64,000 bases of DNA, from UHGV virus genome UHGV-0036582; one strand, written 5' to 3'. This DNA is from a virus. The position numbers and the translations under genes were made by a program. Below are positions 3,947-39,833 of the stretch, one piece after another (the stretch's first letter is position 1; each line of letters begins with the position of its first letter). The notes below the pieces were generated by a model, which saw nothing but the letters and a program-made list of their open reading frames with translations, ran no database searches and was not told the DNA's origin.

Positions 3947-4639
3947 ATGAAGACTCCGAGAGGCATTCGTAATAATAACCCCGGTAATCTTGATAAAGGA
4001 TCACCGTGGCAAGGTCTGGTTGCGAATCCAGACGAACCGCGCTTTTGCACGTTTAAAGACCCTGTTTGGGGGATTCGTGCACTGGCGGTGACTCTAATTA
4101 CCTACCACGACAAGCGTCGCGCAAAAGACGGCTCAAGTATCGATACCATTCGTGAAGTTATTGAACGTTGGGCACCGCCGAATGAAAACAACACTGACGC
4201 CTACATTAATGAGGTGTCTAAAGCCGTTGGTGTAACCGCAGACATGATTATCGATCTGCATGATTACGACATTCTTCGACCTTTGGTTGAGGCAATCATT
4301 CGCCATGAGAATGGGCGAGGTCCGCTAAAAACGCTGAACACCTGGTATGCGGCAGAAGTTATTGAGGAAGGTCTGCGTCGAGCTGGCGTCGTTAAGCCGG
4401 TGAAAACCGTGAAGGCTGTTCCTGTAACTAAAGAAACGGCAGGCGCAACTGTTACAGCAGGTATTGGTCTGGCGCAGCTGGCCGATGTTATGCCGCAGGT
4501 TTCCGCTGCTATGGATAAAGCACAAGGTCATATCTCTAGCGGGGATACAGTACGCATCATCTTCGGTATTGCCACTATTGTTGTGGCTGGATTTATCGCC
4601 TGGTCGCAGGTAAGAAGACACCAGAAAGGGATGGTCTAA
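3947..4639 (+). CDS. Putative endolysin or cell-wall hydrolase with C-terminal membrane anchor
   Basis: Start moved to the ATG at 3947, which has an AGGAG RBS at 3935-3939. N-terminal RNNNPGNL motif, C-terminal hydrophobic helix IIFGIATIVVAGFIAWSQV. The call rests mainly on position between the membrane protein and the spanin pair. Confidence 0.4.
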   Translation: MKTPRGIRNNNPGNLDKGSPWQGLVANPDEPRFCTFKDPVWGIRALAVTLITYHDKRRAKDGSSIDTIREVIERWAPPNENNTDAYINEVSKAVGVTADMIIDLHDYDILRPLVEAIIRHENGRGPLKTLNTWYAAEVIEEGLRRAGVVKPVKTVKAVPVTKETAGATVTAGIGLAQLADVMPQVSAAMDKAQGHISSGDTVRIIFGIATIVVAGFIAWSQVRRHQKGMV

Positions 4640-4640
4640 T

Positions 4641-4892
4641 ATGCTAGGCAGCCTGATGACAAAGCTAAAAGTTGCTTTGATTACGCTGGCTGCCGTTCTT
4701 TTCGTTCTGGTCGGCGCTTACACGATGGGCGGAAATGCGGCGCGACGAGCAATGGAAGAGAAGGCAAAACAGGAAGACAGGAAACGACTTCAAAGCACAG
4801 TGGACGTCAAAAATGAAACACTTGATGAGTTACGGCGCAAGGATGCTTCTACTGTTCATCATGAGTTGCACAATAAGTGGTTGCGTGATTAA
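4641..4892 (+). CDS. i-spanin (Rz-like): N-terminal TM helix plus periplasmic coiled coil
   Basis: 83 aa; TM helix LKVALITLAAVLFVLVGAYTM followed by a charged helical region; the o-spanin gene is nested in its 3' end in the +1 frame. Confidence 0.7.
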   Translation: MLGSLMTKLKVALITLAAVLFVLVGAYTMGGNAARRAMEEKAKQEDRKRLQSTVDVKNETLDELRRKDASTVHHELHNKWLRD

Positions 4893-5043
4893 GCCTCAAC
4901 CCGCTGGTGTGCTTTTCTGCGATGCGGCTACACCGCTATACATCAGCCGTGATGATCTCATGACCGAAGAGACTGAAAGAGAGGTGCTTTTTCACAATAT
5001 GATTGGGGAGCGATTGTGTGGATGGGGCAGAAAAGTGCCATAA
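4813..5043 (+). CDS. o-spanin (Rz1-like) outer-membrane lipoprotein, overlapping the i-spanin gene
   Basis: ATG at 4813 inside ORF 4735..5043; signal peptide MKHLMSYGARMLLLFIMSCTISGC with a lipobox Cys; Pro-rich mature part; classic overlapped Rz/Rz1 layout. Confidence 0.65.
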   Translation: MKHLMSYGARMLLLFIMSCTISGCVIKPQPAGVLFCDAATPLYISRDDLMTEETEREVLFHNMIGERLCGWGRKVP

Positions 5044-5217
5044 CAAAAGTGGCGTTTTCTAACATAAAATTTGCATATTATTAGAGCACAAGGTAGATTT
5101 GATGCATGGATGTCAAGTAAATCATACCTTGTTTTAATAAATCGACGCATACTCGTAGCCTCTAAACCGACAAGGTCGCCGCTATGACATAAAGTTATTA
5201 CCGGCTAAGGTGGAAAC

Positions 5218-17342: not shown

Positions 17343-17417
17343 GATGGTGTAGCTCAGCGGTAGAGCAGTTGGCTGTTAACCAACTGGTCGGTGGTTCGAA
17401 TCCACCCACCATCGCCA
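17343..17417 (+). tRNA. tRNA-Asn (anticodon GTT)
   Basis: Hand-folded cloverleaf: acceptor gatggtg/caccatc, D-arm gctcagcggtagagc, anticodon stem gttgg/ccaac with loop ctGTTaa, T-arm ggtggttcgaatccacc, encoded CCA. Confidence 0.8.
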
Positions 17418-17422
17418 ATTTA

Positions 17423-17509
17423 GGGGAGTTAGTCCGTAGGGGCAGCGGGGTAGACTGTAAATCTACTGTCATTGCGACTCGGGTGGTTCGACTCCATCAC
17501 TCCCCACCA
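17423..17509 (+). tRNA. tRNA-Tyr (anticodon GTA), long variable arm
   Basis: Acceptor ggggagt/actcccc, anticodon stem gtaga/tctac with loop ctGTAaa, long variable arm, T-loop ttcgact, encoded CCA. Confidence 0.7.
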
Positions 17510-17513
17510 AATT

Positions 17514-17589
17514 GCCGGTTTAGCTCAGTTGGTAGAGCGCCTGCCTTGTAAGCAGGATGTCAGCGGTTCGAGTCCGCTAACCGGCACCA
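17514..17589 (+). tRNA. tRNA-Thr (anticodon TGT)
   Basis: Acceptor gccggtt/aaccggc, D-arm gctcagttggtagagc, anticodon stem cctgc/gcagg with loop ctTGTaa, T-arm agcggttcgagtccgct, CCA. Confidence 0.8.
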
Positions 17590-17814
17590 ATACAACGATA
17601 AGATCATTACGGTTAATCGTCGTTCATGTGCACAATGACTGGTCGAAAGGTAGTGATCTTACCGTTGTGGTGGATTCGCAGACTGATGCGATAGCTTTCT
17701 TGGATGTTAGGGAAATGCGGCCGCAAATCTTCCCTTTCGCGAGCGGTGATCGTCCGTAGTCCTAATTGGCTGCACCGTATGCCGGAGATTCAGTACCGGC
17801 CACCACAACGGCCG

Positions 17815-17901
17815 GAGAGTAGGGAGCATGGTGCTCAAGCGGTCTTGAAAACCGTCCCATTGCGCAAGCGATGATGGTTCGATTCCATTACTCTCCGCCA
17901 G
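17815..17901 (+). tRNA. tRNA-Ser (anticodon TGA), long variable arm
   Basis: Acceptor ggagagt/actctcc, anticodon loop ctTGAaa, long variable arm, T-arm gatggttcgattccatt, CCA; some stems rely on G-U pairs, so less certain. Confidence 0.6.
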
Positions 17902-18054
17902 ACACAGCGTTGAGCGGTTTGGCCTTTTAATCAACTCGATTAAGACTCCGCTAACATAAACCAGACCGCTCAACGCTGTGATAGACAATTACGGCAGACG
18001 TTCTTAACCATAGCTTGCTAACATCCTAGCAACACTTTTTTCAGCGCAAAATTC

Positions 18055-18078
18055 AAAGGGGCTTCGGCCCCTTTTTTG
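18055..18078. terminator. Bidirectional rho-independent terminator between the tRNA cluster and the convergent minus-strand gene
   Basis: aaaggggc-ttcg-gccccttttttg: GC stem with an A-tract on one side and a T-tract on the other. Confidence 0.8.
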
Positions 18079-18092
18079 TTGAACAGTGCAAT

Positions 18093-19355
18093 TTACTTTG
18101 CATAGTCGCCCAATTTTAATATTTCGCGCTTATATTCATTAACCATGCTACTGGATTCAGTATAAATTCGATTTAAAAGATTATCGTTATCTTTATTTTC
18201 ATTTATCTTAATTAGTGCTAATTTATATTCATAGTCATCAAATGCCACAATTAAATGGTGGCCTGGGATTATATCTTCGTCACTCTTAAAGTATATATCT
18301 TCAAGTATGTAATCTAGTTGATTAGATTTTCTTTTCTCGATGTAATCTTCAGCCATAGCTATTACATCATTCCTGTCATTTAACCTGTTTTTTTCGGAAG
18401 GCACATCTTCGTAATGTTGCACGATTGAACAACCAATAAGGCGTGGGATGTAAACGTCAAAATGAGTAACTCTATCATTCGCGGTTTTAAGTAGTTCCTC
18501 AAAGTAGTTTCTTACATGTAAAGGCAACTTCTCAAAGTAATCATTAATTATAGGAGAACAAGGAGTTTTATAATTCATAAGAACCGACGGTACGAGCTTT
18601 GGGTGTCGAAACATCCAGTCCCTTTTAACGTCCGATGGAACATAATAACTTTTAATGATATTATCAAAATAATTTATCATTCGAGATTTGAATATTTTGT
18701 TGAATCTAAGGTTTATGAATGTATCCAGATAAGGCATATTTGAATAAGCATCATCAAAAAATATTTCATCATTGAAAAAATCATATTTATTCAATAAACA
18801 ACACAGTTTTTCCGAATTAATATGTTCACAATAATCGATTTTTAATCCAAAGATAGCAATGATCAACTTCATCTGAGGTGGGATTTTAAAAATTAATTGT
18901 GACACATACGCTCTTTTTTCCTTGAGACATTCCCCATCAATATAAAATGAACCATCCACATACTCAAATATATTAATAATATGCTTCACATACTGTATTA
19001 CCTCATGCTGTCTTACCAATGGATAATATAGTCTATGTAACTCATCGCTGTTTAAATTAATTTTGTGTTTATCGATAATTTGTTTTGCAAGAAGACATAA
19101 CTCATCATGTTGATTTAATAAGGAATCAAACCATTGTTTAAATGCACTCTTTCGCATTTCGAACAATGATTCAGTTGTTAATTGAAGGGCTGAAAAAGCT
19201 GCTTTTGCACTTTTTCTCGCTTCGTAGGCATTCCATGCTGTTGCTATAAAAGCAAATGCTGTAGCCAATGTTCCAACAGTTTGACCATTTAAAACAACCC
19301 AATCCCAAAAAATGACGGTGAGCAGTAGTATAATAATGAAAATTAAAAAAGGCAT
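18093..19355 (-). CDS. Low-GC membrane-anchored protein of unknown function (two N-terminal TM helices, about 350-aa cytoplasmic domain)
   Basis: 420-aa ORF, visibly far more AT-rich than its neighbours; TM helices FLIFIIILLLTVIFWDWVVL and LATAFAFIATAWNAY; Asn/Tyr/Phe/Lys/Asp-rich remainder with no recognisable catalytic motif. Confidence 0.6.
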   Translation of the reverse strand: MPFLIFIIILLLTVIFWDWVVLNGQTVGTLATAFAFIATAWNAYEARKSAKAAFSALQLTTESLFEMRKSAFKQWFDSLLNQHDELCLLAKQIIDKHKINLNSDELHRLYYPLVRQHEVIQYVKHIINIFEYVDGSFYIDGECLKEKRAYVSQLIFKIPPQMKLIIAIFGLKIDYCEHINSEKLCCLLNKYDFFNDEIFFDDAYSNMPYLDTFINLRFNKIFKSRMINYFDNIIKSYYVPSDVKRDWMFRHPKLVPSVLMNYKTPCSPIINDYFEKLPLHVRNYFEELLKTANDRVTHFDVYIPRLIGCSIVQHYEDVPSEKNRLNDRNDVIAMAEDYIEKRKSNQLDYILEDIYFKSDEDIIPGHHLIVAFDDYEYKLALIKINENKDNDNLLNRIYTESSSMVNEYKREILKLGDYAK

Positions 19356-19985: not shown

Positions 19986-21089
19986 ATGAAAAATAGCTTT
20001 GACAGAGCACGCGCTGCGGAGAACACCTCAAAAGAGGCGATAGAGTATCTCGAAAGAGCATCTCAAATGCAGGCCGTTATGATCTCCCAGGTCAGCAATG
20101 ACATGAGATTCTCGGACGCATTCATGTTATTCACTCGCTTATCTCTGCTGATAACCAGACGTCGGCCAGAGATCGCTGTTCATTGTATTTTGATACATGT
20201 TTTGCCGCACCTTGCCGATGTAAAAGTAAGTGACATTAATAGGTTCATGGTGAACCAACTGGTCAACCCACTAATACTGGATGGCAAAATTGTTATGGGC
20301 CGCCGCGTTTTCTCTCTGATGAAGCAGTTCCTTAGCTGGTGCGCCTTCCAGGGGATGATAGACGTGTCACCGTTAAACGATATGTCACTTAACAATGTTG
20401 CCGGTGGCGCAAAGCCCACACCTCGCGAGCGGAAGCTGACCGACGCAGAGGTATGGGTGTTCTGGAATATATGGGACTACTTCAATGTGTGCGCTGGTAC
20501 AAAATGGGCGGCCAGGCTATGTCTTGTATCCGCAAGACGACCTGACGAAGTACTGCGGGCTAAAAAAAGTGAGTTCAACCTCCAGCGTGGGGTTTGGAAT
20601 CAAGGCAAGAGAAACAAATCAGCCCGTGAGCATTCTCTGCCTTTAAGCACATTAATGCGCACATGCATTGAAGAGTTATTCGAATATGGTAAAGGCAGCC
20701 AGTGGCTTGTGCCTTCGAATAAAAAAATCGGGAATGATCTTCCGATGTCTAAAGTGGCAATAGCCCAGGCATTACGCCGTATCCTGGAACGACCAGAACT
20801 GATGGAGCTTGAGCCATTTACACCCCGAGATTTGCGTCGTACTGCGCGTAGTTACTTCCCAGCATTAGGCATAAGCCAGGAGGTATCACGCAAAATCATG
20901 AACCACAGTCTTGAGGGGATAGATCGGGTCTACGACCGGCACGATTATATGGACGAGATGCGAGACGCCTTAGAAAGTTTCTCGACGTACATCGCATCAA
21001 TCGTAGAGCAACCGGATTTAGACGAAATTGACCACAAATTCAAGGGAGATCGTCTATCAACAGAGCTTATTCGTGTAAATTTTTCATAG
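19986..21089 (+). CDS. Tyrosine recombinase (integrase or resolvase family)
   Basis: Segments consistent with the catalytic R..K..H.R..H..Y set: VSARRPDEV, PRDLRRTARS, MNHS, RVYDRHDY. Confidence 0.75.
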   Translation: MKNSFDRARAAENTSKEAIEYLERASQMQAVMISQVSNDMRFSDAFMLFTRLSLLITRRRPEIAVHCILIHVLPHLADVKVSDINRFMVNQLVNPLILDGKIVMGRRVFSLMKQFLSWCAFQGMIDVSPLNDMSLNNVAGGAKPTPRERKLTDAEVWVFWNIWDYFNVCAGTKWAARLCLVSARRPDEVLRAKKSEFNLQRGVWNQGKRNKSAREHSLPLSTLMRTCIEELFEYGKGSQWLVPSNKKIGNDLPMSKVAIAQALRRILERPELMELEPFTPRDLRRTARSYFPALGISQEVSRKIMNHSLEGIDRVYDRHDYMDEMRDALESFSTYIASIVEQPDLDEIDHKFKGDRLSTELIRVNFS

Positions 21090-21470
21090 AGACTTTATGG
21101 CCTCAACAACCTTTTGTGATGCGCCTTTCTCTTTACCGAATCGCTCGTTATATGCAGCAAGAACCTGTTTTTCGTCCTCGTTAAGAGGCGCAGTGCCTTC
21201 TTTGTATAAAAATGCTGCGAGTTCAGGTTGGCGTTCTTCCAGCACCATCATCATAAGACGACTTGGCTCAATACCCAGCGCCAGCGCCAGCGGACGAACC
21301 TTATCGATAGGCAAAGGAATTTTGCCACTTTTAATTAAAGAAAGGTTGTTGGCATTTTTATAACCAATAAGTCTAGCTATTTGGGCCTGACTCATAGGTG
21401 AGGATTCAATCAGCCCTGCGATAAAAGCAGCATAGCGACTTTCTATAAATTCAATCTTGTTGTCAGACAT
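21084..21470 (-). CDS. Helix-turn-helix DNA-binding protein, possible transcriptional regulator
   Basis: 128 aa; HTH-like segment SQAQIARLIGYKNANNLSLIKSGK; convergent with the recombinase gene. Confidence 0.5.
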   Translation of the reverse strand: MSDNKIEFIESRYAAFIAGLIESSPMSQAQIARLIGYKNANNLSLIKSGKIPLPIDKVRPLALALGIEPSRLMMMVLEERQPELAAFLYKEGTAPLNEDEKQVLAAYNERFGKEKGASQKVVEAIKSL

Positions 21471-21721
21471 TGTTACAACCTTTGCGCGTTTAATTCTCTC
21501 TGGTAAGTGCTTACCGATATTACATCAAAGGTTAGGGTTGTAAAGCTATTATCATTTTTTTCGGCAGGCACTTGTAAGACCGAGCAAAGGCCCACGCATG
21601 GAGAAAAACTAGCCCAAAATAGGTAAGAAAATTAACTTGCATCTGATATGGATGTATTCAGTATTGATATAATTTTTAGTAGTATTCCTTACCATAGTAT
21701 AAGTTAGAATGGATTGATTGA

Positions 21722-33242: not shown

Positions 33243-33304
33243 TCTCTTGAAAATATATAAGTACTTACTTATTATTTTCGCATAACAACCACATAGGAAA
33301 ACAC

Positions 33305-33505
33305 ATGATCAAAATCTATCTATTGGCAGTAGCCACAGGCCTTTCAGTGGCTCTCATCTACGGTTTACTGGTTCCGTCGCTGATTTCTACCAAGAGTGAT
33401 TTAGCCGTCATGTTTGGAGTTATCGTTGGTTTTGGTGCTCCTGTAATCGGTCTTATTGCTGGTCGTAAGTTTATCAACTCATTAATCAAAGCAAAGGGGA
33501 AATAA
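33305..33505 (+). CDS. Small two-TM membrane protein
   Basis: 66 aa; helices IYLLAVATGLSVALIYGLLV and VMFGVIVGFGAPVIGLIAG; immediately upstream of the SPFH lipoprotein gene. Confidence 0.5.
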   Translation: MIKIYLLAVATGLSVALIYGLLVPSLISTKSDLAVMFGVIVGFGAPVIGLIAGRKFINSLIKAKGK

Positions 33506-33508
33506 GTA

Positions 33509-34339
33509 ATGAAGAAAGGTTTACTTGCAGTTGCTCTGGCGGCTATTTGCACAATGGGTCTTACTGGCTGTGATCGCGTGGAGCCTGGATACGTTGGCAT
33601 CAAAGTAAACAAATTAGGTGAAGACAAAGGGATCGGTGAAGTGGTTGGCGTTGGTCGCCAATGGACAGGTCTTAACACCGAACTTTACGTATTCCCGACC
33701 TTCAAACAAATGAAGACCTACGACGAGCCGTTCACATTCCAGATGAGTGACGGTACTGCTATTGGTCACAAAATTGGCGTTGCGTATCTGGTTAATCGTG
33801 ACAAGGTAACGACGGTGTTCCAGACCTATCGCAAAGGCGTAGACGATATCACCGAATCAGATCTGCGTCAGAAAATTGCCGACTCTCTAAACCGTTTGGC
33901 CAGCCGTATGACCACTGACTCATTTATCGACGGTGGTAAGGCGCAATTGCTGGACAACGCACTGAAAGATATTCAGAAAGAGATGTCTCCGGTTGGTATT
34001 GAGGTACTGAGCCTGTCATGGGTTGGAAAGCCTGATTACCCAAAAACCGTCATTGAATCTATCAACGCCAAAGTAACGGCTAACCAGCGTACTCTGCAAC
34101 GTCAGCAGGAAGTTGAACAGCGTAAAGCTGAGGCGAATATGCTACGTGAACAGGCTAATGGTGAAGCTGATGCTATCCGTGCTCGTGCGCAAGCAGAAGC
34201 CGACGCCATTCGTCTGCGCGGTGAAGCTCTGCGTCAAAACCCGAACGTTATGGAGCTGGAAGCCATCAATAAATGGAATGGCCAGTTACCGCAGTACATG
34301 ACTCAAGGGGCTAACACTCCTTTCATTACAGTGAAATAA
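33509..34339 (+). CDS. SPFH/band-7-like lipoprotein
   Basis: Lipoprotein signal MKKGLLAVALAAICTMGLTGC; central domain followed by a coiled-coil Ala/Glu/Arg/Gln-rich region typical of SPFH proteins. Confidence 0.55.
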   Translation: MKKGLLAVALAAICTMGLTGCDRVEPGYVGIKVNKLGEDKGIGEVVGVGRQWTGLNTELYVFPTFKQMKTYDEPFTFQMSDGTAIGHKIGVAYLVNRDKVTTVFQTYRKGVDDITESDLRQKIADSLNRLASRMTTDSFIDGGKAQLLDNALKDIQKEMSPVGIEVLSLSWVGKPDYPKTVIESINAKVTANQRTLQRQQEVEQRKAEANMLREQANGEADAIRARAQAEADAIRLRGEALRQNPNVMELEAINKWNGQLPQYMTQGANTPFITVK

Positions 34340-34357: not shown

Positions 34358-34383
34358 GGCGTCCAGTTGGACGCCGTTTTATT
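34358..34383 (+). terminator. Rho-independent terminator
   Basis: ggcgtcc-agtt-ggacgcc then gttttatt. Confidence 0.75.
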
Positions 34384-34434
34384 CTCGTTATTATCACACA
34401 CAAGAAAACAATTTGTTAAAAGGTTAAGTTAATT

Positions 34435-35259
34435 ATGCCCAACCACATTACAAACGAAATCCGAGTCATAGGTGGTACAAATAAACAACGCTTAGATTTC
34501 ATACGTGCCATAACTAACAAAAAAGGTCTAATTGACTTTAATACCATTTGCAGACGTCCGAAAAGTATAGAAATGGAAGAAAACAATCATATCAGGCGCA
34601 TGGCCTCTGCAATGGCGGGCGAAACAGTTTACGACCACATGTTCGGTGAATTAAAGACTCCAGAACAGGTCGAATTAGCTATGCGTGAATCAGGAATGAC
34701 ACGCAAGGAAATTCGCAAAATCAAAGAGCAGGCTCTTATGCGGCTTGAGAATTATCGTCGCTATGGCTATTACTCATGGTTTGACTGGTCGCGAGCTAAT
34801 TGGGGAACAAAATGGAATGCCTACAACATCGAAATGCCCGTAAAACGTATCCCTACACGTATTAAGTACGGCCATAATTTCCGCCATACACACGTTCGAG
34901 CATATGCAAAACGAATCTATAAAAAACGTCTTGCAAGACATGCCGCAACTGGTGGTGAGTTGGTGATTCGCTTTGAAACAGCCTGGTCTATGCCAAAACC
35001 AATTTATCAAGCGATGGCTAGAAAGTTCCCGCACCTTGAGTTTGTAATACGTTATGCAGACGAAGACTTCGGCAATAACTGCGGATTCATTTTACTTCGC
35101 AACGGCAAATGGGAATATGACTACATTGCACCGGCGAATAACAAACAATCGTCAGAAGAAAAAATCAAATGGCGCAAGTTCGCCTTTGAGTTATGTTGTC
35201 CTGGTATCACTCCACAAGAATACGGTCTAAATGAAGAATACGAATACGCCGGATATTAA
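34435..35259 (+). CDS. Hypothetical protein (Trp-rich motif SWFDWSRANWGTKWNA)
   Basis: 274-aa ORF in a slightly AT-richer accessory block; no recognisable motif. Confidence 0.45.
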   Translation: MPNHITNEIRVIGGTNKQRLDFIRAITNKKGLIDFNTICRRPKSIEMEENNHIRRMASAMAGETVYDHMFGELKTPEQVELAMRESGMTRKEIRKIKEQALMRLENYRRYGYYSWFDWSRANWGTKWNAYNIEMPVKRIPTRIKYGHNFRHTHVRAYAKRIYKKRLARHAATGGELVIRFETAWSMPKPIYQAMARKFPHLEFVIRYADEDFGNNCGFILLRNGKWEYDYIAPANNKQSSEEKIKWRKFAFELCCPGITPQEYGLNEEYEYAGY

Positions 35260-35306
35260 AAAAAATTGTCATTTAGCTTTACGCATGAAGCATAGAGGTT
35301 AATAAG

Positions 35307-36047
35307 ATGAAAAGAAAAATTGAAGAACCAAAAACGACTCTTAATAAACATGGGGAAAAAATTCAAACACATCCAGCGTTCGGTCTTGTGAAAACAAGCC
35401 GTGTTAGCACAACTGGCATTCGCCTATTTGATTCAGAACTGGAACATAGAGACTATATTGAAATAGGCGTTTACGAGGCGGAACTGTCCTTAGACAATGA
35501 ACGAACCCGCCCACAAAGAAGTTGCAATAGACGGCCTTTAGTTGAAATTAGACTTAGCCAGGCACAATGGGCTGCTATGGTTAGCAGTTTTGGAGTGGGC
35601 GAAGGTGTGCCATGCACTATTTCATATAAAACCATTGGAGACTCAATTAGAGTTCATGATATTGCCGAGCAAAAAAGTATTCGGCAAAAATTCAACGATC
35701 AAATAAAGGCCGCTACGAATAGTGAGATTGATCGACTTAATCAGCAAGTTTCAGAGCTAGGTGAACTTGTGAAAAAAGGAAGAGCTGGAAAACGTGACCT
35801 TGAAGAACTATATAGAAAACTAGCATCTGCTGTAGCTAACCTTCCTGAAAATCTGTGCTTTGCTACCGAATTAATGCAGGAACAAATGGATGAAATTGTC
35901 TCTTCTGGAAAGGCGGAGATTGAGGCGTATGTTGCGGGCACGGTTATGCGTAAAGGGTTAGCAGCATTAGGCACAGAATCATGCATTAACGATGATCCTA
36001 CTGTCTCTATCACCAAAATGGAAAGCGGTAAAGAATTACTGCCATAA
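35307..36047 (+). CDS. Hypothetical protein
   Basis: 246-aa ORF. Confidence 0.45.
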   Translation: MKRKIEEPKTTLNKHGEKIQTHPAFGLVKTSRVSTTGIRLFDSELEHRDYIEIGVYEAELSLDNERTRPQRSCNRRPLVEIRLSQAQWAAMVSSFGVGEGVPCTISYKTIGDSIRVHDIAEQKSIRQKFNDQIKAATNSEIDRLNQQVSELGELVKKGRAGKRDLEELYRKLASAVANLPENLCFATELMQEQMDEIVSSGKAEIEAYVAGTVMRKGLAALGTESCINDDPTVSITKMESGKELLP

Positions 36048-36114
36048 ATGCATCTGAGGTACTGACAATGCTTTTAATTCAACCTGGGTTCGGTTTAAAG
36101 ATAAAAAAGGGCAT

Positions 36115-36456
36115 ATGTTTGGTGAGCGAGATTCCAAACGAAAAATTCTGTCTATTCGATTACCATTTATCACCATTCATTGGTTAAACAGAGAGTCAAC
36201 CGATTATTGGTATAAATGCGCAAGAGCAGCATTTAACGACCCTGACTGGTTTGTAGAAAATCACCACGCGGTTCGTCAGGCAAAAAGAAAGGCTAATACG
36301 ACATATATGAAGGCATATCAGGATGCCTGGGAAGAACATCGTGGCCGATACCAAAAAAACATTGAAAAACTTGAATCAGAAAATATGGACCTAAGAAGAA
36401 AACTCGGTGAAGCACGTCGAGACATCGAAGCATATAAACGTCTTGTATCGGAGTGA
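36115..36456 (+). CDS. Hypothetical protein with C-terminal coiled coil
   Basis: 113-aa ORF. Confidence 0.4.
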   Translation: MFGERDSKRKILSIRLPFITIHWLNRESTDYWYKCARAAFNDPDWFVENHHAVRQAKRKANTTYMKAYQDAWEEHRGRYQKNIEKLESENMDLRRKLGEARRDIEAYKRLVSE

Positions 36457-36517
36457 ATATATCTTTGCTTTATTTTTTCAAAGGTGATTATTTTCCTATT
36501 TATAAGGAGAAGTAAAC

Positions 36518-36943
36518 ATGGCAGCAATTAAGAAACTCTACGATGCCGCAAACGCGGCTCTGGATGTTATTGATGATGAAGTATCAAAAGGCTTTCCTGA
36601 ACCTGATTGGGCGCATCAGCTACGAAACGCTATCGCAGAAATGACCCCATCAGATCCACCCCCCGACGAGACAAACTGGCAGCGATTCATCCGTATGTAC
36701 GCTCAGGAAATAGGTCCAACGCCAACGGCAGAGCAGGCAATGCTGCTGAAATACTTCAAAGAGGCGGGAGAGGATTTACCAATTGATGACTCAGCATATT
36801 GGTTCCACTGCGCATGGCGTAAGTATGACGTGATATTCACACAAGGCATGGGAAGCAAAGATATGGTTGTGTGGCATCTACTCCATATAGACACAGCCGT
36901 TGACAGAGTTATTGAACAGTTTTTCCCTAACCAAGAAGATTGA
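36518..36943 (+). CDS. Hypothetical protein
   Basis: 141-aa ORF with an RBS-like AAGGAGAAG leader. Confidence 0.45.
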   Translation: MAAIKKLYDAANAALDVIDDEVSKGFPEPDWAHQLRNAIAEMTPSDPPPDETNWQRFIRMYAQEIGPTPTAEQAMLLKYFKEAGEDLPIDDSAYWFHCAWRKYDVIFTQGMGSKDMVVWHLLHIDTAVDRVIEQFFPNQED

Positions 36944-36998
36944 TCGCCTATTCATAACTAACAAAATAAGTAAACACTAACCACAAAAGGAAAAACAC

Positions 36999-37274
36999 AT
37001 GAGAGTTTTAGTTCGAATCGTTACCAGCACTGTCTATGACGTGTTTCCGCTTTTTATGGTCAAAGTCGATGGCCTTAACGATGAAGAAACTGACGCGCTG
37101 ATCCAGCGTATTCTCGTTGAATATACAGGTCATGACGCTGATTCAGTGATGGTTGATGATGATGGTGTTTGTTGGCATAACGGCAACTGTTGGTACGTAG
37201 AAGAGACTCAACAAATCAGTGATGAAGATGCCGCACATCTTGAGCGTATTTTAAGCATCAGCACTTTTGAGTGA
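36999..37274 (+). CDS. Hypothetical protein
   Basis: 91-aa ORF with conserved leader aaaggaaaaacacATG. Confidence 0.45.
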   Translation: MRVLVRIVTSTVYDVFPLFMVKVDGLNDEETDALIQRILVEYTGHDADSVMVDDDGVCWHNGNCWYVEETQQISDEDAAHLERILSISTFE

Positions 37275-37313
37275 GTTTACAGTAAAATTTATATAAGTTA
37301 GTATCTACCTATC

Positions 37314-37493
37314 ATGAAGATTTTTATTGAATACTTGTTACTCATCGTTTCAATAGCTTTTGTCATCGACTGCATTTTCACCGGTGTCATTCGTAAAGTC
37401 TTTTCCCCGGTGAACGACGTAGTCATAAACGCTTTGGCTATCGTGCTCGTATTTAATTCAGCATTTGATGTAATCAAAGAGGTGGCAGCATGA
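37314..37493 (+). CDS. Small hydrophobic (two-TM) protein
   Basis: 59-aa ORF MKIFIEYLLLIVSIAFVIDCIFTGV...; its stop overlaps the next start (ATGA). Confidence 0.3.
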   Translation: MKIFIEYLLLIVSIAFVIDCIFTGVIRKVFSPVNDVVINALAIVLVFNSAFDVIKEVAA

Positions 37494-37825
37494 AGGCCAT
37501 CCCATTCGCGCTGTTGTTCCTTTCTTCGATTGTTGTGGCCGACACCACTGTTTATCAGTGTGAAATGTCTGTAGCCGACGTTAAGAATGGCGCTCTTACC
37601 GACGTCATAAAAGCACCATATGGAGCGATGGTCGTAGACAGCGGCGACCAGTTCTATGTTGTGCGTGACGATCGAGTGTTGTCATCCCCATATCTCACAA
37701 ATCGTAATGGCAAATTAACCGGCGTCGGAGAAGACCACTTCGTATACAACAAATACAAGGGCTTCTATGGCGTTCACGCTTCTCAGCAAAGCTACCTTTT
37801 CGATGACTGCAAGGAGGTTGGGTAA
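37490..37825 (+). CDS. Secreted protein of unknown function
   Basis: Signal peptide MKAIPFALLFLSSIVVA; 111 aa; two Cys in the mature part. Confidence 0.45.
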   Translation: MKAIPFALLFLSSIVVADTTVYQCEMSVADVKNGALTDVIKAPYGAMVVDSGDQFYVVRDDRVLSSPYLTNRNGKLTGVGEDHFVYNKYKGFYGVHASQQSYLFDDCKEVG

Positions 37826-38037
37826 TGGCATTAACACTGGCAGGTCTGGAAATCGAGAAAACAAGCGGCTACTGGCGTGCTAAGGGTTTCAAGCAGCCTG
37901 GCATTCTTGAGCGTCTGGAACGTGAAGATGGGTATATCGTCCACCAGCGGCGTGAATGGCGTATGTACGATCCAGAAACAGGAAAACTGACTACAAAAGC
38001 CGGAACACTTTGGGGTCTGTTGAAGAAAATACACTAA
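37825..38037 (+). CDS. Hypothetical small protein
   Basis: 70-aa ORF overlapping the previous stop. Confidence 0.4.
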   Translation: MALTLAGLEIEKTSGYWRAKGFKQPGILERLEREDGYIVHQRREWRMYDPETGKLTTKAGTLWGLLKKIH

Positions 38038-38083
38038 ATGCAAACTGACTGCGGCTCGTTCCGCAGTCATATTTCATAGTCGT

Positions 38084-38618
38084 CACCGCTGACAGCATAC
38101 ACAATCAACTACCGCTGATAGCATATCGAGAGTCTATCTCACCGCTCACAGCATACTTTACTCGATTTTTTACCGCTGACAGCATACTTAAGAAATTGCA
38201 TGAATAATGTGTCCCGGTATGGGTATAACCAGAACAAAATTACCGCTGGCAGCATACGAATGTCTGACATATACCATTAATTACCGCTGATAGCATATCC
38301 AAACAAAAATTCCTCAATAAAACACCGCTGACAGCATACGTTCTATCAGGGAGTAGCAGGCAATAAATGCCTTTCACTACAAGCAATCAGCGCAATAGCA
38401 ATAGAATGTTAGTGAGCGCAAACCTATATGGAATGCACTCTTCGAGGTTAGTAACCACTGGGGAGGTATGACAGAGCATTGAGTGGTGATAGATGATTTA
38501 CCGCTCACAGCATACGTTCATCTCACTATACCGCTGGTAGCATATCTTTAACCGTTCACAGCATACTTTTCAGAAAAATAGCCGCTGATAGCATACATTT
38601 CACCGCTGACAGCATATC
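38084..38618 (+). repeat. Iteron array: about 12 direct copies of a 16-bp repeat (consensus ACCGCTGACAGCATAC) downstream of rep
   Basis: Copies at about 38085, 38111, 38141, 38172, 38242, 38283, 38324, 38490, 38530, 38551, 38581 and 38602, all in one orientation with irregular spacing, plus an approximately 150-bp repeat-free spacer at 38340-38489. Confidence 0.85.
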
Positions 38619-39711
38619 AAAGCAGTTTGAGACTATTGGAAAGGATCTCAATCATCTTGATATTTTCAGGCGTCAAATTCTGCGAAAGTTCGGTTATCTT
38701 GTTGATAATGTTCTGTTTGGCATCAATTTCCCCAGCTTTCTCATCTGGTTTTTTGGGTTCGATGTCTTCAGGTTTTGGCGGTGCGACTTTGAGTTTTGGA
38801 TTGCGGCTGTGAATCTGGATATAGATCGACCGCCCACGCTTAATCTCGCTGTATTCGAGATAGCCCAAATCTTGGAGAGCTTTTAAGCCGTTACGTATAG
38901 TCTGATTCTGCGAGCTGACATTCCTGCTACTCAAATTGAGTCGCGCACGCAATCGAGCAAGCGATACCGGCGCAGGCTTGGTTGGAAGACTTTCGATGAA
39001 GGTGTACAGAGCCTGTGCTGTTTCTTTGCGTGGTAGCTTATTGATAACCTTTAACTGCAAAAGAACCTTATGGTCAAAGCGATATAGTTCGGCCAGCTTC
39101 GGTTCTGCATAGAACACCACCGTATCTTTCTGCTCGTTGTAGTCCACGCTATTGATGAGGTGCACCATCAGAAGCGAGATCTTGTTAGAGCCGTCGACGT
39201 TCTTTTCTTCATACGTTCTCTGGAAAGACAGAGTTGTACGCATGATCTTCAAAAGACTGTTTGTAAGCCGGTCGCGGAGTGTTTTGCGGATCTGTGACGA
39301 TGGATAGCCACAAAACTTAGCAAATTTCGTGATGCTTAACTCGACACGACCGTTAGGTTCGCCGTATTCTGCCAGCGAACGCACAACGCCCACCCACGTT
39401 TTGAAATCATGATCCATGTCGAGACGAGGACCGGTTATCTTGATATCGGAATAGCCTTCAGAACGGGCTACTTCGAGCTGGACAAGCTCCTTTGAAGCAT
39501 CGATCTCATTTGGCTTGTTACGTTTACTGTATTTTGTTCCCTTAAGCGTGGGGACGAACAACCCCAGTCGCATCAACGCAATTGGTTGGACTGTATTGTT
39601 GCTATTAGGGACAAGTTCCCCTGTGTACAATTCAAGGGAACCTTCTTCAAAGTTGTCGATGTTATCTTCTACTTCTTTGTTATTTTTACCTTTTTTATTT
39701 TTTGTGGACAT
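38617..39711 (-). CDS. repA: Plasmid-type replication initiator (Rep) flanked by iterons
   Basis: Start set at the ATG at 39711 (MSTKNKKGKNNK...) because longer starts would run through the upstream iterons; 364 aa; iteron clusters on both sides. Function inferred from this architecture, not from recognised motifs. Confidence 0.6.
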   Translation of the reverse strand: MSTKNKKGKNNKEVEDNIDNFEEGSLELYTGELVPNSNNTVQPIALMRLGLFVPTLKGTKYSKRNKPNEIDASKELVQLEVARSEGYSDIKITGPRLDMDHDFKTWVGVVRSLAEYGEPNGRVELSITKFAKFCGYPSSQIRKTLRDRLTNSLLKIMRTTLSFQRTYEEKNVDGSNKISLLMVHLINSVDYNEQKDTVVFYAEPKLAELYRFDHKVLLQLKVINKLPRKETAQALYTFIESLPTKPAPVSLARLRARLNLSSRNVSSQNQTIRNGLKALQDLGYLEYSEIKRGRSIYIQIHSRNPKLKVAPPKPEDIEPKKPDEKAGEIDAKQNIINKITELSQNLTPENIKMIEILSNSLKLL

Positions 39712-39731
39712 GTGGACACCTTTGTCATTCA

Positions 39732-39833
39732 ACCGCTGACAGCATACTTGATTTGCCGCTGACAGAATACCAAAAACAGTTGGCAGCATACGGTGAACCG
39801 CTGACAGACTATCAATTACCGCTGACAGCATAC
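39732..39833 (+). repeat. Second iteron cluster (4-5 copies) immediately upstream of rep, probable promoter/operator and origin
   Basis: accgctgacagcatac at 39732 and 39818; variants gccgctgacagaatac at 39755, accgctgacagactat at 39797; a partial copy tggcagcatac at 39781. Confidence 0.8.

What the first reader, a model, noticed from the sequence alone, without database searches (positions are those of the whole stretch)
34435..38037. AT-richer accessory block of eight small genes ending in a membrane-peptide / secreted-protein pair
The block lies between the SPFH module and the rep origin. Its genes have no recognisable motifs apart from a Trp-rich segment in the first. It ends with a 59-aa two-TM peptide (37314-37493) overlapping a signal-peptide protein (37490-37825), an arrangement compatible with exclusion or immunity functions.
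Basis: inference. Interest (0 to 1): 0.35.

Follow-up and report, generated by a model that had tools for sequence, protein, structure and literature searches.

The report
Phage-plasmid accessory slot plus early operon
The eight small genes are not one accessory block: three are swappable cargo genes, and five are conserved genes of SSU5-type phage-plasmids, the last three forming a separately switched operon (membrane peptide, secreted protein, P1 Cra-like protein) whose function is still unknown.

Summary
The window is an SSU5-like phage-plasmid, 99.4% identical to E. coli O104:H4 plasmid p09EL50. All eight ORFs exist at the stated coordinates, between the SPFH gene and the repA iterons.

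The block is composite.
- ORF1-3 (34435-36456, GC 0.41) are truly variable cargo. They occur in 16 of the 210 complete E. coli genomes that carry this element. ORF3 is a lambdoid nin-region gene.
- ORF4-8 (36518-38037, background GC) are syntenic in 788 plasmid records (Klebsiella, Escherichia, Enterobacter, Y. pestis pMT1, Salmonella) and under purifying selection.
- ORF6-7-8 is the invariant core. It is a translationally coupled operon with its own promoter, and it ends at a hairpin just before the iterons.

A 20-bp motif overlaps the ORF6 promoter. It is conserved even in relatives with about 30% protein identity and recurs at about 12 operon heads, including the repressor gene.

Published RNA-seq of the near-identical phage Cyrano shows ORF6-8 silent in LB lysogens and about 60-100-fold induced inside macrophages.

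ORF7 founds a small family of secreted, all-beta proteins with two invariant Cys, and it has no solved structural relative. ORF8 is a P1 Cra homologue.

No defence, exclusion or lysozyme-inhibitor family matches. An envelope-acting early function (exclusion or protection) remains a plausible, untested guess. Interest is modest.

The parts
34358..34375 (+). Hairpin terminator after the SPFH gene; left boundary of the block
   Evidence: 7-bp GC-rich stem followed by GTTTTATTCT. The sequence is shared with Cyrano and SSU5 up to the ribosome-binding site of the next gene.
34435..35259 (+). ORF1, 274 aa, DUF1281/Api92-like protein (variable cargo)
   Evidence: PF18406 DUF1281_C 1.1e-15. phrog_12644 7.5e-106. 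Full-length relatives at 24-30% identity in Xanthomonas, Pseudomonas ('Ydd'), Vibrio and Variovorax phages. RefSeq names it 'DUF1281 family ferredoxin-like fold protein'. Absent from Cyrano and SSU5.
35307..36047 (+). ORF2, 246 aa, N-terminal THPAFG / AQWAA...GVPCT domain plus coiled coil (shell gene of SSU5-like elements)
   Evidence: phrog_6452 2.2e-87. 64 homologue clusters; the named ones are enterobacterial and many sit on ~100-110 kb contigs, and none has a precomputed Pfam domain. Present at the same slot in the distant loci L011, L016 and L018. No PDB or Pfam relative beyond coiled-coil noise.
36115..36456 (+). ORF3, 113 aa as it stands; a 5'-truncated copy of a lambdoid nin-region gene (between ninE and ninF)
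   Evidence: 82% DNA identity to HK630_055 and Stx-phage homologues. phrog_1511 2.8e-64, aligned from profile position 17. A 1-nt deletion in the A-run 36103-36108 relative to pEA26_1 removes the ancestral start at 36068. p09EL50 annotates the 390-nt form.
36518..36943 (+). ORF4, 141 aa, acidic DUF7238 protein (conserved)
   Evidence: PF23885 6e-38. Syntenic in SSU5, pMT, Cronobacter, Serratia, L011 and L016. Not found in the Klebsiella locus.
36999..37274 (+). ORF5, 91 aa, acidic protein (conserved)
   Evidence: phrog_2209 8.6e-57. dN/dS 0.08-0.13 against SSU5, pMT, Enterobacter and Cronobacter.
37276..37313 (+). Promoter-like site (TTTACA-17-TAGTAT) overlapped by the 20-bp motif TAAGTTAGTATCTACCTATC, directly in front of the ORF6 ATG
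   Evidence: Promoter scan. The motif is nearly invariant (19-20 of 20 bases) in seven enterobacterial relatives and recognisable in L011 and L016, whose proteins are ~30% identical. Related copies occur at other operon heads: 5 hits at <=3 mismatches with 0 expected, and the core gives 9 hits with 0.46 expected.
37314..37493 (+). ORF6, 59 aa, two-segment membrane peptide
   Evidence: GRAVY 1.55, two hydrophobic 19-mers. phrog_2535 1.4e-31. Intact in all relatives including Klebsiella, with conserved LLLI..S..F..DC and KK/RK-a-l-x-PVN motifs; dN/dS 0.25-0.29.
37490..37825 (+). ORF7, 111 aa, secreted all-beta protein with two invariant Cys
   Evidence: Signal-like N-terminus. The family has 27 representatives among 1.84 billion proteins, with invariant C24, F55, S66 and C107. 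AF2 pLDDT 88.7, ten strands. No PDB match at E<=1e-3. BFVD matches to phage 'lipoproteins' and uncharacterised proteins, TM 0.46-0.76. dN/dS 0.08-0.13.
37825..38037 (+). ORF8, 70 aa, basic P1 Cra homologue
   Evidence: 44% identity over 62 aa to P1 Cra, E 9e-13. Invariant GYWR.KGF motif. Among phage records it is found only in SSU5-like and P1-like phages, plus one weak Cronobacter phage hit. It is the most constrained gene of the block, dN/dS 0.03-0.12.
38046..38069 (+). Hairpin terminator closing the ORF6-8 operon
   Evidence: 9-bp stem with a 6-nt loop. Pairing is kept by a compensatory change in pSTM_Phi, and Cronobacter has a different hairpin at the same place.
38080..38618 (.). Context: 11 iterons (ACCGCTGACAGCATA[CT]) of the repA origin; right boundary
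   Evidence: Direct-repeat family D1. repA ORF on the minus strand at 38617-39831.
33252..33271 (-). Context: weaker copy of the same 20-bp motif upstream of the small membrane gene and SPFH gene pair
   Evidence: 4 mismatches to the consensus, intergenic. The Cyrano homologues CYRAN_56/57 are co-induced with CYRAN_60-62.
21502..21515 (.). Context: palindromic core GGTAAGTGCTTACC, 30 bp upstream of the repressor-like gene (21084-21470, minus strand)
   Evidence: Exact core match on both strands, sequence read. The Cyrano homologue CYRAN_45 is annotated 'putative repressor' and is expressed in lysogens.

Best explanation
The block is a composite of three units in an SSU5-like phage-plasmid.

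(1) ORF1-3 fill a recombination-prone cargo slot just after the SPFH terminator. Relatives carry nothing there, a NinX/DUF2591 gene, or shuffled combinations of ORF1, ORF2, ORF3 and NinX. ORF3 comes from the lambdoid nin-region gene pool. This part is shown.

(2) ORF4 and ORF5 are conserved small acidic proteins of unknown role.

(3) ORF6-ORF7-ORF8 is a separate, translationally coupled operon. Its promoter abuts the ORF6 start codon and it ends at a hairpin in front of the repA iterons.
- Shown: its promoter is overlapped by a 20-bp quasi-palindromic motif that recurs at about a dozen operon heads, including the repressor gene's own upstream region.
- Inferred: I read this motif as the operator of the element's master repressor, in the style of the scattered C1 operators of P1. 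The operon would then be off in the quiescent plasmid state and switched on when repression is relieved.
- Shown in a near-identical element: silent in LB, then among the most induced genes of phage Cyrano inside macrophages.

Products of the operon:
- ORF6 inserts in the inner membrane.
- ORF7 is exported and probably disulfide-locked.
- ORF8 is a small basic cytoplasmic protein of the Cra family, which is found only in plasmid-prophages.

Most likely function (inferred, about 30% confidence for this step): ORF6 and ORF7 act at the envelope early after derepression or infection. They would exclude superinfecting phage or protect the wall and membrane, rather than act as a constitutive lysogen immunity. 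ORF8 would serve the plasmid-prophage lifestyle.
For: Replicon identity: 99.4% to p09EL50 and phage CMS-2020a.

Variable versus conserved:
- The 5' part matches 65 plasmid records (27 near full length); the 3' part matches 788 (413 near full length).
- 16 versus 210 of 5,426 complete E. coli genomes.
- The slot contents differ in Cyrano, SSU5, pEA26_1 and pSTM_Phi.
- The junction lies at the ribosome-binding site and start codon.
- ORF3 is a nin-region gene.

Deep synteny of ORF4-8 next to repA. Purifying selection with saturated dS.

Operon anatomy:
- Start/stop overlaps, promoter-like site, terminator with a compensatory change.
- In Cyrano, ORF4 and ORF5 homologues are not co-induced with the ORF6-8 homologues.

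Motif:
- Conservation upstream of ORF6 exceeds that of the coding sequence.
- Genome-wide enrichment.
- The copy upstream of sbcD is also kept in SSU5, Serratia and L016.
- A perfect palindromic core lies in front of the repressor-like gene.

Expression (PMC9928086 S1 Table), log2(FPKM+5):
- CYRAN_60/61/62 are at 2.3-3.8 in LB stationary phase and 8.3-9.0 in THP1 macrophages at 6 h.
- CYRAN_46, next to the repressor, rises from 4.3 to 10.8.
- The SPFH pair rises to 7.3-7.7.

Envelope location: hydropathy, invariant Cys pair, confident all-beta model.

Pairing with a tiny membrane peptide recurs in L011, L016, L018 and Pantoea phage PdC23. In PdC23 the ORF7-like gene is the second gene of the operon divergent from cro.

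The ORF7 fold is shared with phage-encoded secreted proteins and lipoproteins. Cra occurs only in P1-like and SSU5-like phages.
Against: - No function is demonstrated for any of the eight genes.
- No PADLOC, NCBIfam or annotated-PHROG match supports exclusion.
- The operator reading rests on sequence pattern only. Several motif-bearing operons (homologues of CYRAN_31, 53, 65, 69, 79) rise only 1.4-1.8 log2 units in macrophages, while ORF6-8 rise about 6. Something more than simple derepression, for example a host envelope-stress regulator, may drive ORF6-8 and the SPFH pair.
- The ORF6 copy differs from the core consensus at 2 positions.
- The RNA-seq is from Cyrano, not from this exact element, and macrophage induction could reflect a host-adaptive role rather than a phage-cycle role.
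- Adjacency to the origin, and the strongest constraint falling on ORF8, could point to a replication or maintenance role instead.
Confidence: 0.55

Rival explanations
1. One reading: the whole block is dispensable accessory cargo, and the ORF6/ORF7 pair is a lysogen-expressed exclusion or immunity determinant (lysogenic conversion).
For: ORF1-3 are variable and AT-richer. ORF6 is a membrane peptide and ORF7 is secreted. Small envelope proteins of prophages often give exclusion (general knowledge).
Against: ORF4-8 are core: 788 plasmid records with conserved synteny. The Cyrano homologues are at the detection floor in LB-grown lysogens and were not called morons by the authors. No PADLOC hit.
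Confidence: 0.1
2. ORF6-8, or at least ORF8/Cra, serve plasmid replication, copy-number control or maintenance. Cra would act on DNA near the iterons as it might near lox in P1, and the membrane proteins would tether or modulate the replicon.
For: The operon is invariably adjacent to the iterons and repA, even in relatives with ~30% identity. Cra homologues occur only in plasmid-prophages, P1-like and SSU5-like. In P1, cra lies between lox and cre. ORF8 is the most constrained gene (dN/dS 0.03) and is basic (pI 9.6).
Against: RepA (CYRAN_63) is expressed in LB while CYRAN_60-62 are silent, so stable maintenance in LB does not need them. An exported protein has no obvious role in replication. 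The operon is closed by a terminator before the iterons. No DNA-binding domain was detected.
Confidence: 0.2
3. ORF6-8, together with the SPFH pair, are a host-adaptive envelope-stress module. The host cell uses it inside macrophages or under membrane stress, so it is a conditionally expressed moron rather than a phage-cycle function.
For: Induction of 60-100-fold in THP1 macrophages without detectable Cyrano virions. The lipoprotein SPFH pair is co-induced, while most motif-bearing operons stay low. The element family is carried by Y. pestis (pMT1), S. Typhi (pHCM2) and AIEC LF82.
Against: The operon is equally conserved in environmental and commensal Klebsiella, Enterobacter, Cronobacter and Serratia elements. 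CYRAN_46 next to the repressor and some capsid and tail genes rise at the same time, so partial derepression is a simpler reading. An ORF7-like gene sits in an early operon of Pantoea phage PdC23. I found no convincing PhoP or CpxR box by eye upstream of ORF6 (the palindrome TTTACAGTAAA is not repeated).
Confidence: 0.12
4. ORF7 is a periplasmic lysozyme inhibitor of the MliC/PliC type, protecting the wall from incoming tail lysozymes or from the element's own endolysin.
For: ORF7 is a small secreted beta protein with Cys near both ends. P. aeruginosa MliC (3f6z_B) is among the top PDB hits with Foldseek probability 0.97. A phage RB49 protein named 'LprI-like lysozyme inhibitor' is a BFVD hit at E 1e-3, TMq 0.52.
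Against: TM-score to MliC is only 0.39-0.44 with rmsd ~12 A and E 0.036; no PDB hit reaches E 1e-3. No Pfam MliC hit. The profile search of PDB does not retrieve MliC.
Confidence: 0.05

Closest known systems
P1 Cra (cre-associated protein, phrog_804)
   Same: ORF8 is a true homologue: 70 vs 73 aa, 44% identity over 62 aa, shared GYWRAKGF motif, basic, and restricted to plasmid-prophages.
   Different: In P1 cra lies between lox and cre and carries the cre promoters inside it. Here it is the last gene of a three-gene operon and abuts the repA iterons, with no cre beside it. Function is unknown in both.
Lambdoid nin region (ninE - orf - ninF; NinX/DUF2591)
   Same: ORF3 is 82% identical in DNA to the gene between ninE and ninF of HK630, HK629 and Stx phages. 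Relatives put NinX genes in the same slot. Small non-essential genes are swapped at gene boundaries.
   Different: The slot here lies downstream of the recombination and SPFH genes of a phage-plasmid, not between replication genes and Q. ORF1 and ORF2 are not nin genes.
P1 C1 repressor with operators scattered over many operons
   Same: One short motif recurs at the heads of about a dozen dispersed operons, including the repressor's own region. The operons are silent in the plasmid state.
   Different: The motif sequence differs from the asymmetric 17-bp P1 C1 operator (from my own knowledge). The repressor-like protein has no Pfam match. Binding has not been tested.
Early superinfection-exclusion pairs such as T4 Imm (membrane) and Sp (periplasmic)
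   Same: A small inner-membrane protein plus a small exported protein, apparently expressed when the lytic programme starts rather than constitutively. This is an analogy of architecture only.
   Different: No sequence relationship: all PHROG hits are to families of unknown function. ORF7 is all-beta, whereas T4 Spackle is helical (from my own knowledge). No exclusion phenotype is known.
Phage-encoded 'lipoproteins' and uncharacterised secreted proteins of Erwinia jumbo phages, Xanthomonas phage DIBBI, Pectobacterium phage Possum and phage SEGD1 (BFVD models)
   Same: Same predicted fold as ORF7 (TM 0.6-0.76, E 6e-7 to 7e-4), similar size, and secreted.
   Different: 12-28% identity. Several are lipoproteins, whereas ORF7 has no lipobox. 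None has a known function.

Membership tests
SSU5-like phage-plasmid backbone (recA-like ... repA segment) | Conserved gene order exonuclease - RecA-like - (SPFH pair) - small genes - Cra-like - iterons/repA - ASCH - sbcDC | tested here: met
   The same order is seen in SSU5, Cyrano, pMT, Enterobacter, Cronobacter, Serratia and L016. The window is 99.4% identical to p09EL50.
P1 Cra family (phrog_804) | About 70-aa protein with significant sequence similarity to P1 Cra | tested here: met
   BLASTP 44% over 62 aa, E 9e-13. phrog_804 6.5e-34. tblastn retrieves P1, P7, SJ46 and RCS47 cra.
P1 Cra family (phrog_804) | Genomic association with cre/lox | tested here: not met
   ORF8 is followed by a terminator and the repA iterons. 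The integrase-like gene lies about 17 kb away at 19986-21089.
DUF1281 / Api92-like (PF18406) | Pfam score above the gathering cut-off for the C-terminal ferredoxin-like domain | tested here: met
   ORF1 residues 171-242, 57.8 bits against a cut-off of 22.8. No solved-structure relative by single-sequence search.
DUF7238 (PF23885) | Pfam score above the gathering cut-off | tested here: met
   ORF4, 129.9 bits against a cut-off of 27. Homologues in L011, L016 and L018 carry the same precomputed domain.
Lambdoid nin-region ORF (phrog_1511) | Sequence membership, and occurrence between ninE and ninF in lambdoid phages | tested here: met
   ORF3 phrog_1511 2.8e-64. 82% DNA identity to HK630_055, which is flanked by NinE and NinF. 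The copy here is 5'-truncated.
MliC/PliC periplasmic lysozyme inhibitors | Sequence or profile similarity, including the conserved inhibitory loop motifs | tested here: not met
   No Pfam hit at E<=1. The PDB profile search lacks MliC. hhalign probability 15%.
MliC/PliC periplasmic lysozyme inhibitors | Eight-stranded beta-barrel fold (TM > 0.5 to a solved member) | tested here: not met
   3f6z_B gives TM 0.39-0.44, E 0.036. The ORF7 model has ten strands.
MliC/PliC periplasmic lysozyme inhibitors | Inhibition of lysozyme | not testable with these tools
   Needs purified protein.
Known anti-phage defence systems (PADLOC-DB v2) | A significant match of any of the eight proteins to a defence-system model | tested here: not met
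   The only hit is ORF3 coiled coil against LmuB at E 0.005, 13 bits.
Superinfection-exclusion determinants (functional class) | Reduces infection by homologous or heterologous phage when expressed | not testable with these tools
   Only circumstantial: envelope location, pairing with membrane peptides, early-operon position in PdC23.
Repressor-controlled early operon | Own promoter overlapped by a motif shared with other early operons and with the repressor gene region | tested here: met
Repressor-controlled early operon | Repressor binds the motif; the operon is silent in the lysogen and derepressed on induction | tested here: inconclusive
   Silent in LB and strongly up in macrophages in Cyrano. 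But binding is untested, and other motif-bearing operons respond weakly.

The most novel reading that the evidence does not exclude
ORF6 (two-segment membrane peptide) and ORF7 (secreted, disulfide-locked beta protein with no solved structural relative) could be a previously undescribed envelope-acting system. It is universal in SSU5-type phage-plasmids, including Y. pestis pMT1, S. Typhi pHCM2 and AIEC pLF82. It would be switched by the element's master operator together with an SPFH pair and strongly turned on inside macrophages. Its role would be either a new mechanism of superinfection exclusion or wall protection, or a phage-plasmid contribution to intracellular survival. The Cra-like ORF8 would couple it to the plasmid-prophage lifestyle.
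Probability: 0.12. Interest if true: 0.6.

Novelty: new member of a known kind. Interest (0 to 1): 0.33.

Why it matters
SSU5-like phage-plasmids are common in clinical Enterobacterales: 3.9% of complete E. coli genomes, plus hundreds of Klebsiella plasmids, Y. pestis pMT1 and Salmonella pHCM2-type plasmids. Almost nothing is known about their small genes.

Separating the real cargo slot from the conserved genes tells annotators and experimenters where to look.
- ORF1-3 mark a hot spot for gene exchange with lambdoid phages.
- ORF6-8 are a compact, universally conserved operon with its own regulation and a striking published induction inside macrophages.
- The 20-bp motif gives a testable map of the element's early regulon.

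If ORF6/7 prove to act on the envelope, they would add a new small-protein family to phage exclusion or envelope biology. If not, the block is simply ordinary phage dark matter.

Tried and rejected
- MliC/PliC lysozyme-inhibitor idea for ORF7, raised by the Y-x-C...C pattern. Not supported by Pfam, the PDB profile search or hhalign, and only weakly by Foldseek.
- Beta-propeller blade similarity. The ORF7 profile gives summed E 4e-4 to designed and natural PQQ-type propellers, but no single stretch is significant. The AF2 model did not retrieve these propellers among the listed Foldseek PDB hits. Treated as compositional or beta-hairpin resemblance.
- lox/dif-like recombination site for the 38046-38069 inverted repeat, prompted by Cra's position next to lox in P1. 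Rejected because relatives keep the pairing through a compensatory change, have unrelated hairpins, or run straight into iterons.
- PhoP or CpxR boxes upstream of ORF6. I saw only weak half-site resemblance by eye. The palindrome TTTACAGTAAA is unique and no more frequent than chance.
- Defence-system (PADLOC), NCBIfam and Rfam scans found nothing meaningful.
- Single-sequence or profile PDB searches for ORF1, ORF2, ORF4, ORF5 and ORF8 gave nothing significant; ORF2 hits are coiled-coil noise.
- A first AF2 run with a shallow alignment gave one good model out of five. It was repeated with a deeper alignment, and all five models then agreed.
- One preprint on SSU5-type copy-number heteroresistance could not be read because it is not held.
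- I looked for the repressor region at 18-19 kb by offset from Cyrano. I found instead an unrelated low-GC gene, and the repressor-like gene is at 21084-21470.

Full report
**What the window is.** The region around the finding encodes a gp32-like SSB, a 5'-3' exonuclease, a RecA-like recombinase, a small membrane protein, an SPFH lipoprotein, RepA with iterons, and SbcCD-like genes. The 3.9-kb query around the block is 99.4% identical over its full length to E. coli O104:H4 plasmid p09EL50 and to 'Escherichia phage CMS-2020a'. It matches Salmonella phage SSU5 at 75% over its 3' third. p09EL50 was described as a relative of pLF82, pHCM2 and pMT1 (PMC3486847). The window is therefore an SSU5-type phage-plasmid.

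**Check of the observation.**
- The block starts after a hairpin terminator that follows the SPFH gene (34358-34375). It ends at a hairpin (38046-38069) that precedes 11 iterons (38080-38618) and repA.
- ORF6 is very hydrophobic, with two segments. ORF7 has a signal-like N-terminus ending VVA|D.
- ORF6/7 overlap by ATGA and ORF7/8 by TAATG.
- The AT-richness is real only for ORF1-3 (GC 0.411). ORF4-8 (0.447) match the window mean of 0.455.
- The statement that there are no recognisable motifs is not correct. ORF1 carries PF18406 (DUF1281_C) and ORF4 is PF23885 (DUF7238). ORF3 is a lambdoid nin-region gene and ORF8 is a P1 Cra homologue. All eight belong to PHROG families of unknown function.

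**The block is composite.** Searching plasmids with the two halves separately gives very different pictures.
- The 5' half (ORF1-3) matches 65 records, 27 of them nearly full length.
- The 3' half (ORF4-8) matches 788 records, 413 of them nearly full length: Klebsiella 312, Escherichia 226, Enterobacter 91, Yersinia 63, Salmonella 49.
- Among 5,426 complete E. coli genomes, 210 carry the ORF6-8 segment, always on a plasmid. Only 16 carry ORF1-2.

*The cargo slot.* Annotated relatives show what occupies the slot between the SPFH terminator and ORF4.
- Cyrano has nothing there.
- SSU5, Y. pestis pMT and Enterobacter have a NinX/DUF2591 gene.
- E. albertii pEA26_1 has ORF1-2-3-NinX.
- Salmonella pSTM_Phi has a shuffled ORF1-ORF3-DUF2591-ORF2-DUF2591.
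- The junction between the window and Cyrano lies at the ribosome-binding site and start codon, the usual place for mosaic joints in phages.
- ORF3 is 82% identical in DNA to the gene between ninE and ninF in HK630, HK629 and Stx phages.
- In this window ORF3 has lost its first 16 codons through a 1-nt deletion in an A7 run.
- ORF2 is less sporadic than ORF1 and ORF3. Homologues of 42-70% identity occur in many Klebsiella, Salmonella, Enterobacter and Citrobacter assemblies, mostly on contigs of about 100-110 kb. Homologues also sit at the same slot in three distant relatives, but the family has no Pfam or PDB relative.

**The conserved part.** The order ORF4-5-6-7-8 followed by repA is kept in SSU5, Cyrano, pMT, pSTM_Phi, Enterobacter, Cronobacter (which lacks the SPFH pair) and Serratia. 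It is also kept in two metagenomic or read-assembled relatives whose ORF7 is only 28-31% identical.
- In Klebsiella the SPFH pair, ORF4 and ORF5 are missing, but ORF6, ORF7 and ORF8 are intact.
- Pairwise comparisons give saturated dS. dN/dS is 0.08-0.13 for ORF5, 0.25-0.29 for ORF6, 0.08-0.13 for ORF7 and 0.03-0.12 for ORF8.
- These are real genes under purifying selection, and ORF6-8 is the invariant core.

**ORF6-8 is its own transcription unit.** A sigma-70-like site (TTTACA-17-TAGTAT, 37276-37304) sits directly before the ORF6 ATG. ORF6 has no Shine-Dalgarno sequence, so the mRNA would be leaderless or nearly so (inference).
- The sequence TAAGTTAGTATCTACCTATC over the -10 and start region is nearly invariant (19-20 of 20 bases) in seven enterobacterial relatives. 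It is still recognisable in the two distant loci, which makes it better conserved than the proteins.
- Related copies (consensus TA[AG]GTAAGTAtnTACCTATC, a quasi-palindrome TAGGTA-N6-TACCTA) lie in intergenic positions at the heads of about twelve operons. At <=3 mismatches there are 5 hits with 0 expected. The core GGTAAGTNNNTACC gives 9 hits with 0.46 expected.
- One weaker copy precedes the small-membrane/SPFH pair (33252-33271).
- A perfectly palindromic core lies 30 bp upstream of the gene homologous to Cyrano's 'putative repressor' (21502-21515).
- I read the motif as the operator of the master repressor, in the manner of P1 C1. A phage-specific promoter class is the alternative. Binding is untested.
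- The hairpin after ORF8 keeps its pairing through a compensatory change in pSTM_Phi and is replaced by other hairpins elsewhere. It is therefore a terminator, not a recombination site.

**Published expression data.** Cyrano (pLF82) is 98% identical over ORF4-8. Re-analysed RNA-seq (PMC9928086, S1 Table) gives the following values as log2(FPKM+5), with a floor of 2.32.

| Cyrano gene | Window gene | LB stationary | THP1 macrophages, 6 h |
|---|---|---|---|
| CYRAN_60 | ORF6 | 2.32, 2.32 | 8.77, 8.44 |
| CYRAN_61 | ORF7 | 2.77, 2.32 | 8.28, 8.60 |
| CYRAN_62 | ORF8 | 3.76, 3.72 | 8.83, 9.02 |
| CYRAN_58 | ORF4 | 2.69, 2.32 | 4.20, 3.94 |
| CYRAN_59 | ORF5 | 2.85, 3.50 | 4.84, 5.07 |

- ORF4 and ORF5 homologues therefore barely move, which supports a separate promoter for ORF6-8.
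- The SPFH pair rises to 7.3-7.7. CYRAN_46, beside the repressor, rises from 4.3 to 10.8.
- Only the toxin-antitoxin genes change as much.
- The authors detected no Cyrano virions in macrophages, and they did not list CYRAN_58-62 among genes expressed in lysogens.
- Other motif-bearing operons (homologues of CYRAN_31, 53, 65, 69, 79) rise by only about 1.4-1.8 log2 units. Derepression alone may therefore not explain the strength of the response.

**The proteins.**
- *ORF7.* A word-indexed search found only 23 clusters; the named ones are enterobacterial hypothetical proteins and the longest contigs are ~100-112 kb. A full HMM scan of 1.84 billion representatives found 27 at E<=1e-3. The family is about 113 aa long, with a signal peptide and invariant C24, F55, S66 and C107.
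- With the deeper alignment, AlphaFold2 gives a consistent ten-strand all-beta model (pLDDT 88.7; the five models range 87.6-88.7).
- Foldseek finds no PDB match at E<=1e-3. The best meaningful hit is MliC 3f6z_B, with TM 0.39-0.44.
- In BFVD it matches phage 'lipoproteins' and uncharacterised secreted proteins of Erwinia jumbo phages, Xanthomonas phage DIBBI, Pectobacterium phage Possum and phage SEGD1. TM-scores are mostly 0.6-0.76 and E-values run from 6e-7 to 7e-4.
- Sequence tests for MliC membership fail.
- *Contexts of distant ORF7 relatives.* In L011, L016 and L018 the gene follows a 45-51-aa membrane peptide and precedes a Cra-like gene. In Pantoea phage PdC23 it is the second gene of the operon divergent from cro and is followed by an overlapping 46-aa membrane peptide. 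In a prophage island it sits among small membrane and secreted proteins next to a Tlde1-domain gene.
- *ORF8.* It shares 44% identity and the GYWRAKGF motif with P1 Cra. Among 50,697 phage records the family occurs only in SSU5-like and P1-like phages, plus one weak Cronobacter phage hit. It has no Pfam or PDB relative.

**Interpretation.**
- Shown: the composite structure, the conservation, the operon anatomy, the motif and its distribution, the predicted envelope location of ORF6 and ORF7, and the conditional expression in a near-identical element.
- Inferred: that the motif is the repressor's operator; that ORF6/7 work together at the envelope early after derepression, for exclusion of superinfecting phage or protection of the wall and membrane; and that Cra serves the plasmid-prophage lifestyle.
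It would be a core, conditionally expressed function, not a variable lysogen-expressed cargo.
- Rivals: a replication or maintenance role for the operon, a host-adaptive envelope-stress module, and a lysozyme inhibitor. I give these roughly 0.2, 0.12 and 0.05.

**Novelty and score.** The genes are already present, as 'hypothetical', in hundreds of database records, and gene-swap slots and small early genes are ordinary features of temperate phages. Three things appear new:
- the partition of the block into cargo and conserved parts;
- the conserved motif that ties ORF6-8 to a genome-wide regulon;
- the definition of the ORF7 family, and the link to macrophage-induced expression.

I rate the block as a new member of a known kind, with modest interest (0.33). 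The most novel reading not excluded, a new envelope-acting system of phage-plasmids, has about 0.12 probability.

Noticed in passing
window 8650, 13217, 16576, 19468, 21502, 29734, 33252, 37294, 40799, 45498, 55050, 57266, 62234 (each about 20 bp): A quasi-palindromic motif (consensus TA[AG]GTAAGTAtnTACCTATC, core GGTAAGTNNNTACC) recurs at intergenic operon heads across the element, including in front of the repressor-like gene. It is far above chance, and its positions are conserved in SSU5, Serratia and a metagenomic relative. It is probably the master operator or an early-promoter class of SSU5-type phage-plasmids.
   Followed up: partly
window 36103-36108 (ORF3): An A7 homopolymer is A6 here, unlike E. 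albertii pEA26_1. p09EL50 annotates the full 390-nt gene, and the closest relatives' matches are 1 nt longer. The change shifts the frame and removes the first 16 codons of the nin-type gene. It is either a recent mutation or a homopolymer sequencing error.
   Followed up: yes
protein P0016 (Salmonella enterica, seen on at least 1000 contigs, longest 108 kb): A 101-aa in-frame fusion of the N-terminal half of ORF6 to the core of ORF7, with the ORF7 signal peptide and first Cys region deleted. It is widespread in one Salmonella lineage, possibly pHCM2 of S. Typhi. This would be a natural loss or alteration of the pair.
   Followed up: no
window 33305-34339 and Cyrano CYRAN_56/57: The small membrane protein and SPFH lipoprotein pair upstream of the block is co-induced with ORF6-8 in macrophages. 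It is absent from the Cronobacter and Klebsiella relatives, so it is a second conditionally expressed envelope module and is not universal.
   Followed up: partly
window 18093-19355 (minus strand): A 420-aa gene in a very AT-rich kilobase (GC 0.315 over 18001-19000), with an N-terminal hydrophobic segment and no Pfam match. It does not correspond, by position or length, to the genes listed there in Cyrano (not compared by sequence), and it looks like recently acquired cargo.
   Followed up: partly
window 17343-17900: A cluster of four tRNA genes (Asn-GTT, Tyr-GTA, Thr-TGT, Ser-TGA) on the + strand of the phage-plasmid.
   Followed up: yes
L020 (p09EL50) 4676-4892; L008 (Klebsiella) 4482-5114: The gene tables held for these records miss ORF6. 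It is not listed for p09EL50 or E. albertii pEA26_1 (the PLSDB tables are incomplete). In a Klebsiella plasmid a 633-nt ORF in another start context is listed instead of ORF6 plus ORF7.
   Followed up: partly
window 36460-38040 versus 34400-36460: The 5' half of the block is 99.9% identical to p09EL50 and S. sonnei plasmids, but the 3' half reaches at best 98.9% in any plasmid record. This suggests a recombination joint within the block.
   Followed up: no
window 38617-39831 (minus strand): The open repA frame is 404 aa and runs back over the last iterons. Annotated RepA in close relatives is about 351-354 aa, so the true start is probably internal.
   Followed up: no
L014 2652-4711 and L015 158-2193: A distant ORF7 relative (27% identity) lies in a prophage island. 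It follows a Tlde1-domain (L,D-transpeptidase-type effector) gene and two small membrane proteins, and precedes another secreted protein and a tape-measure-like gene. This hints that the family may deal with cell-wall-acting enzymes.
   Followed up: partly
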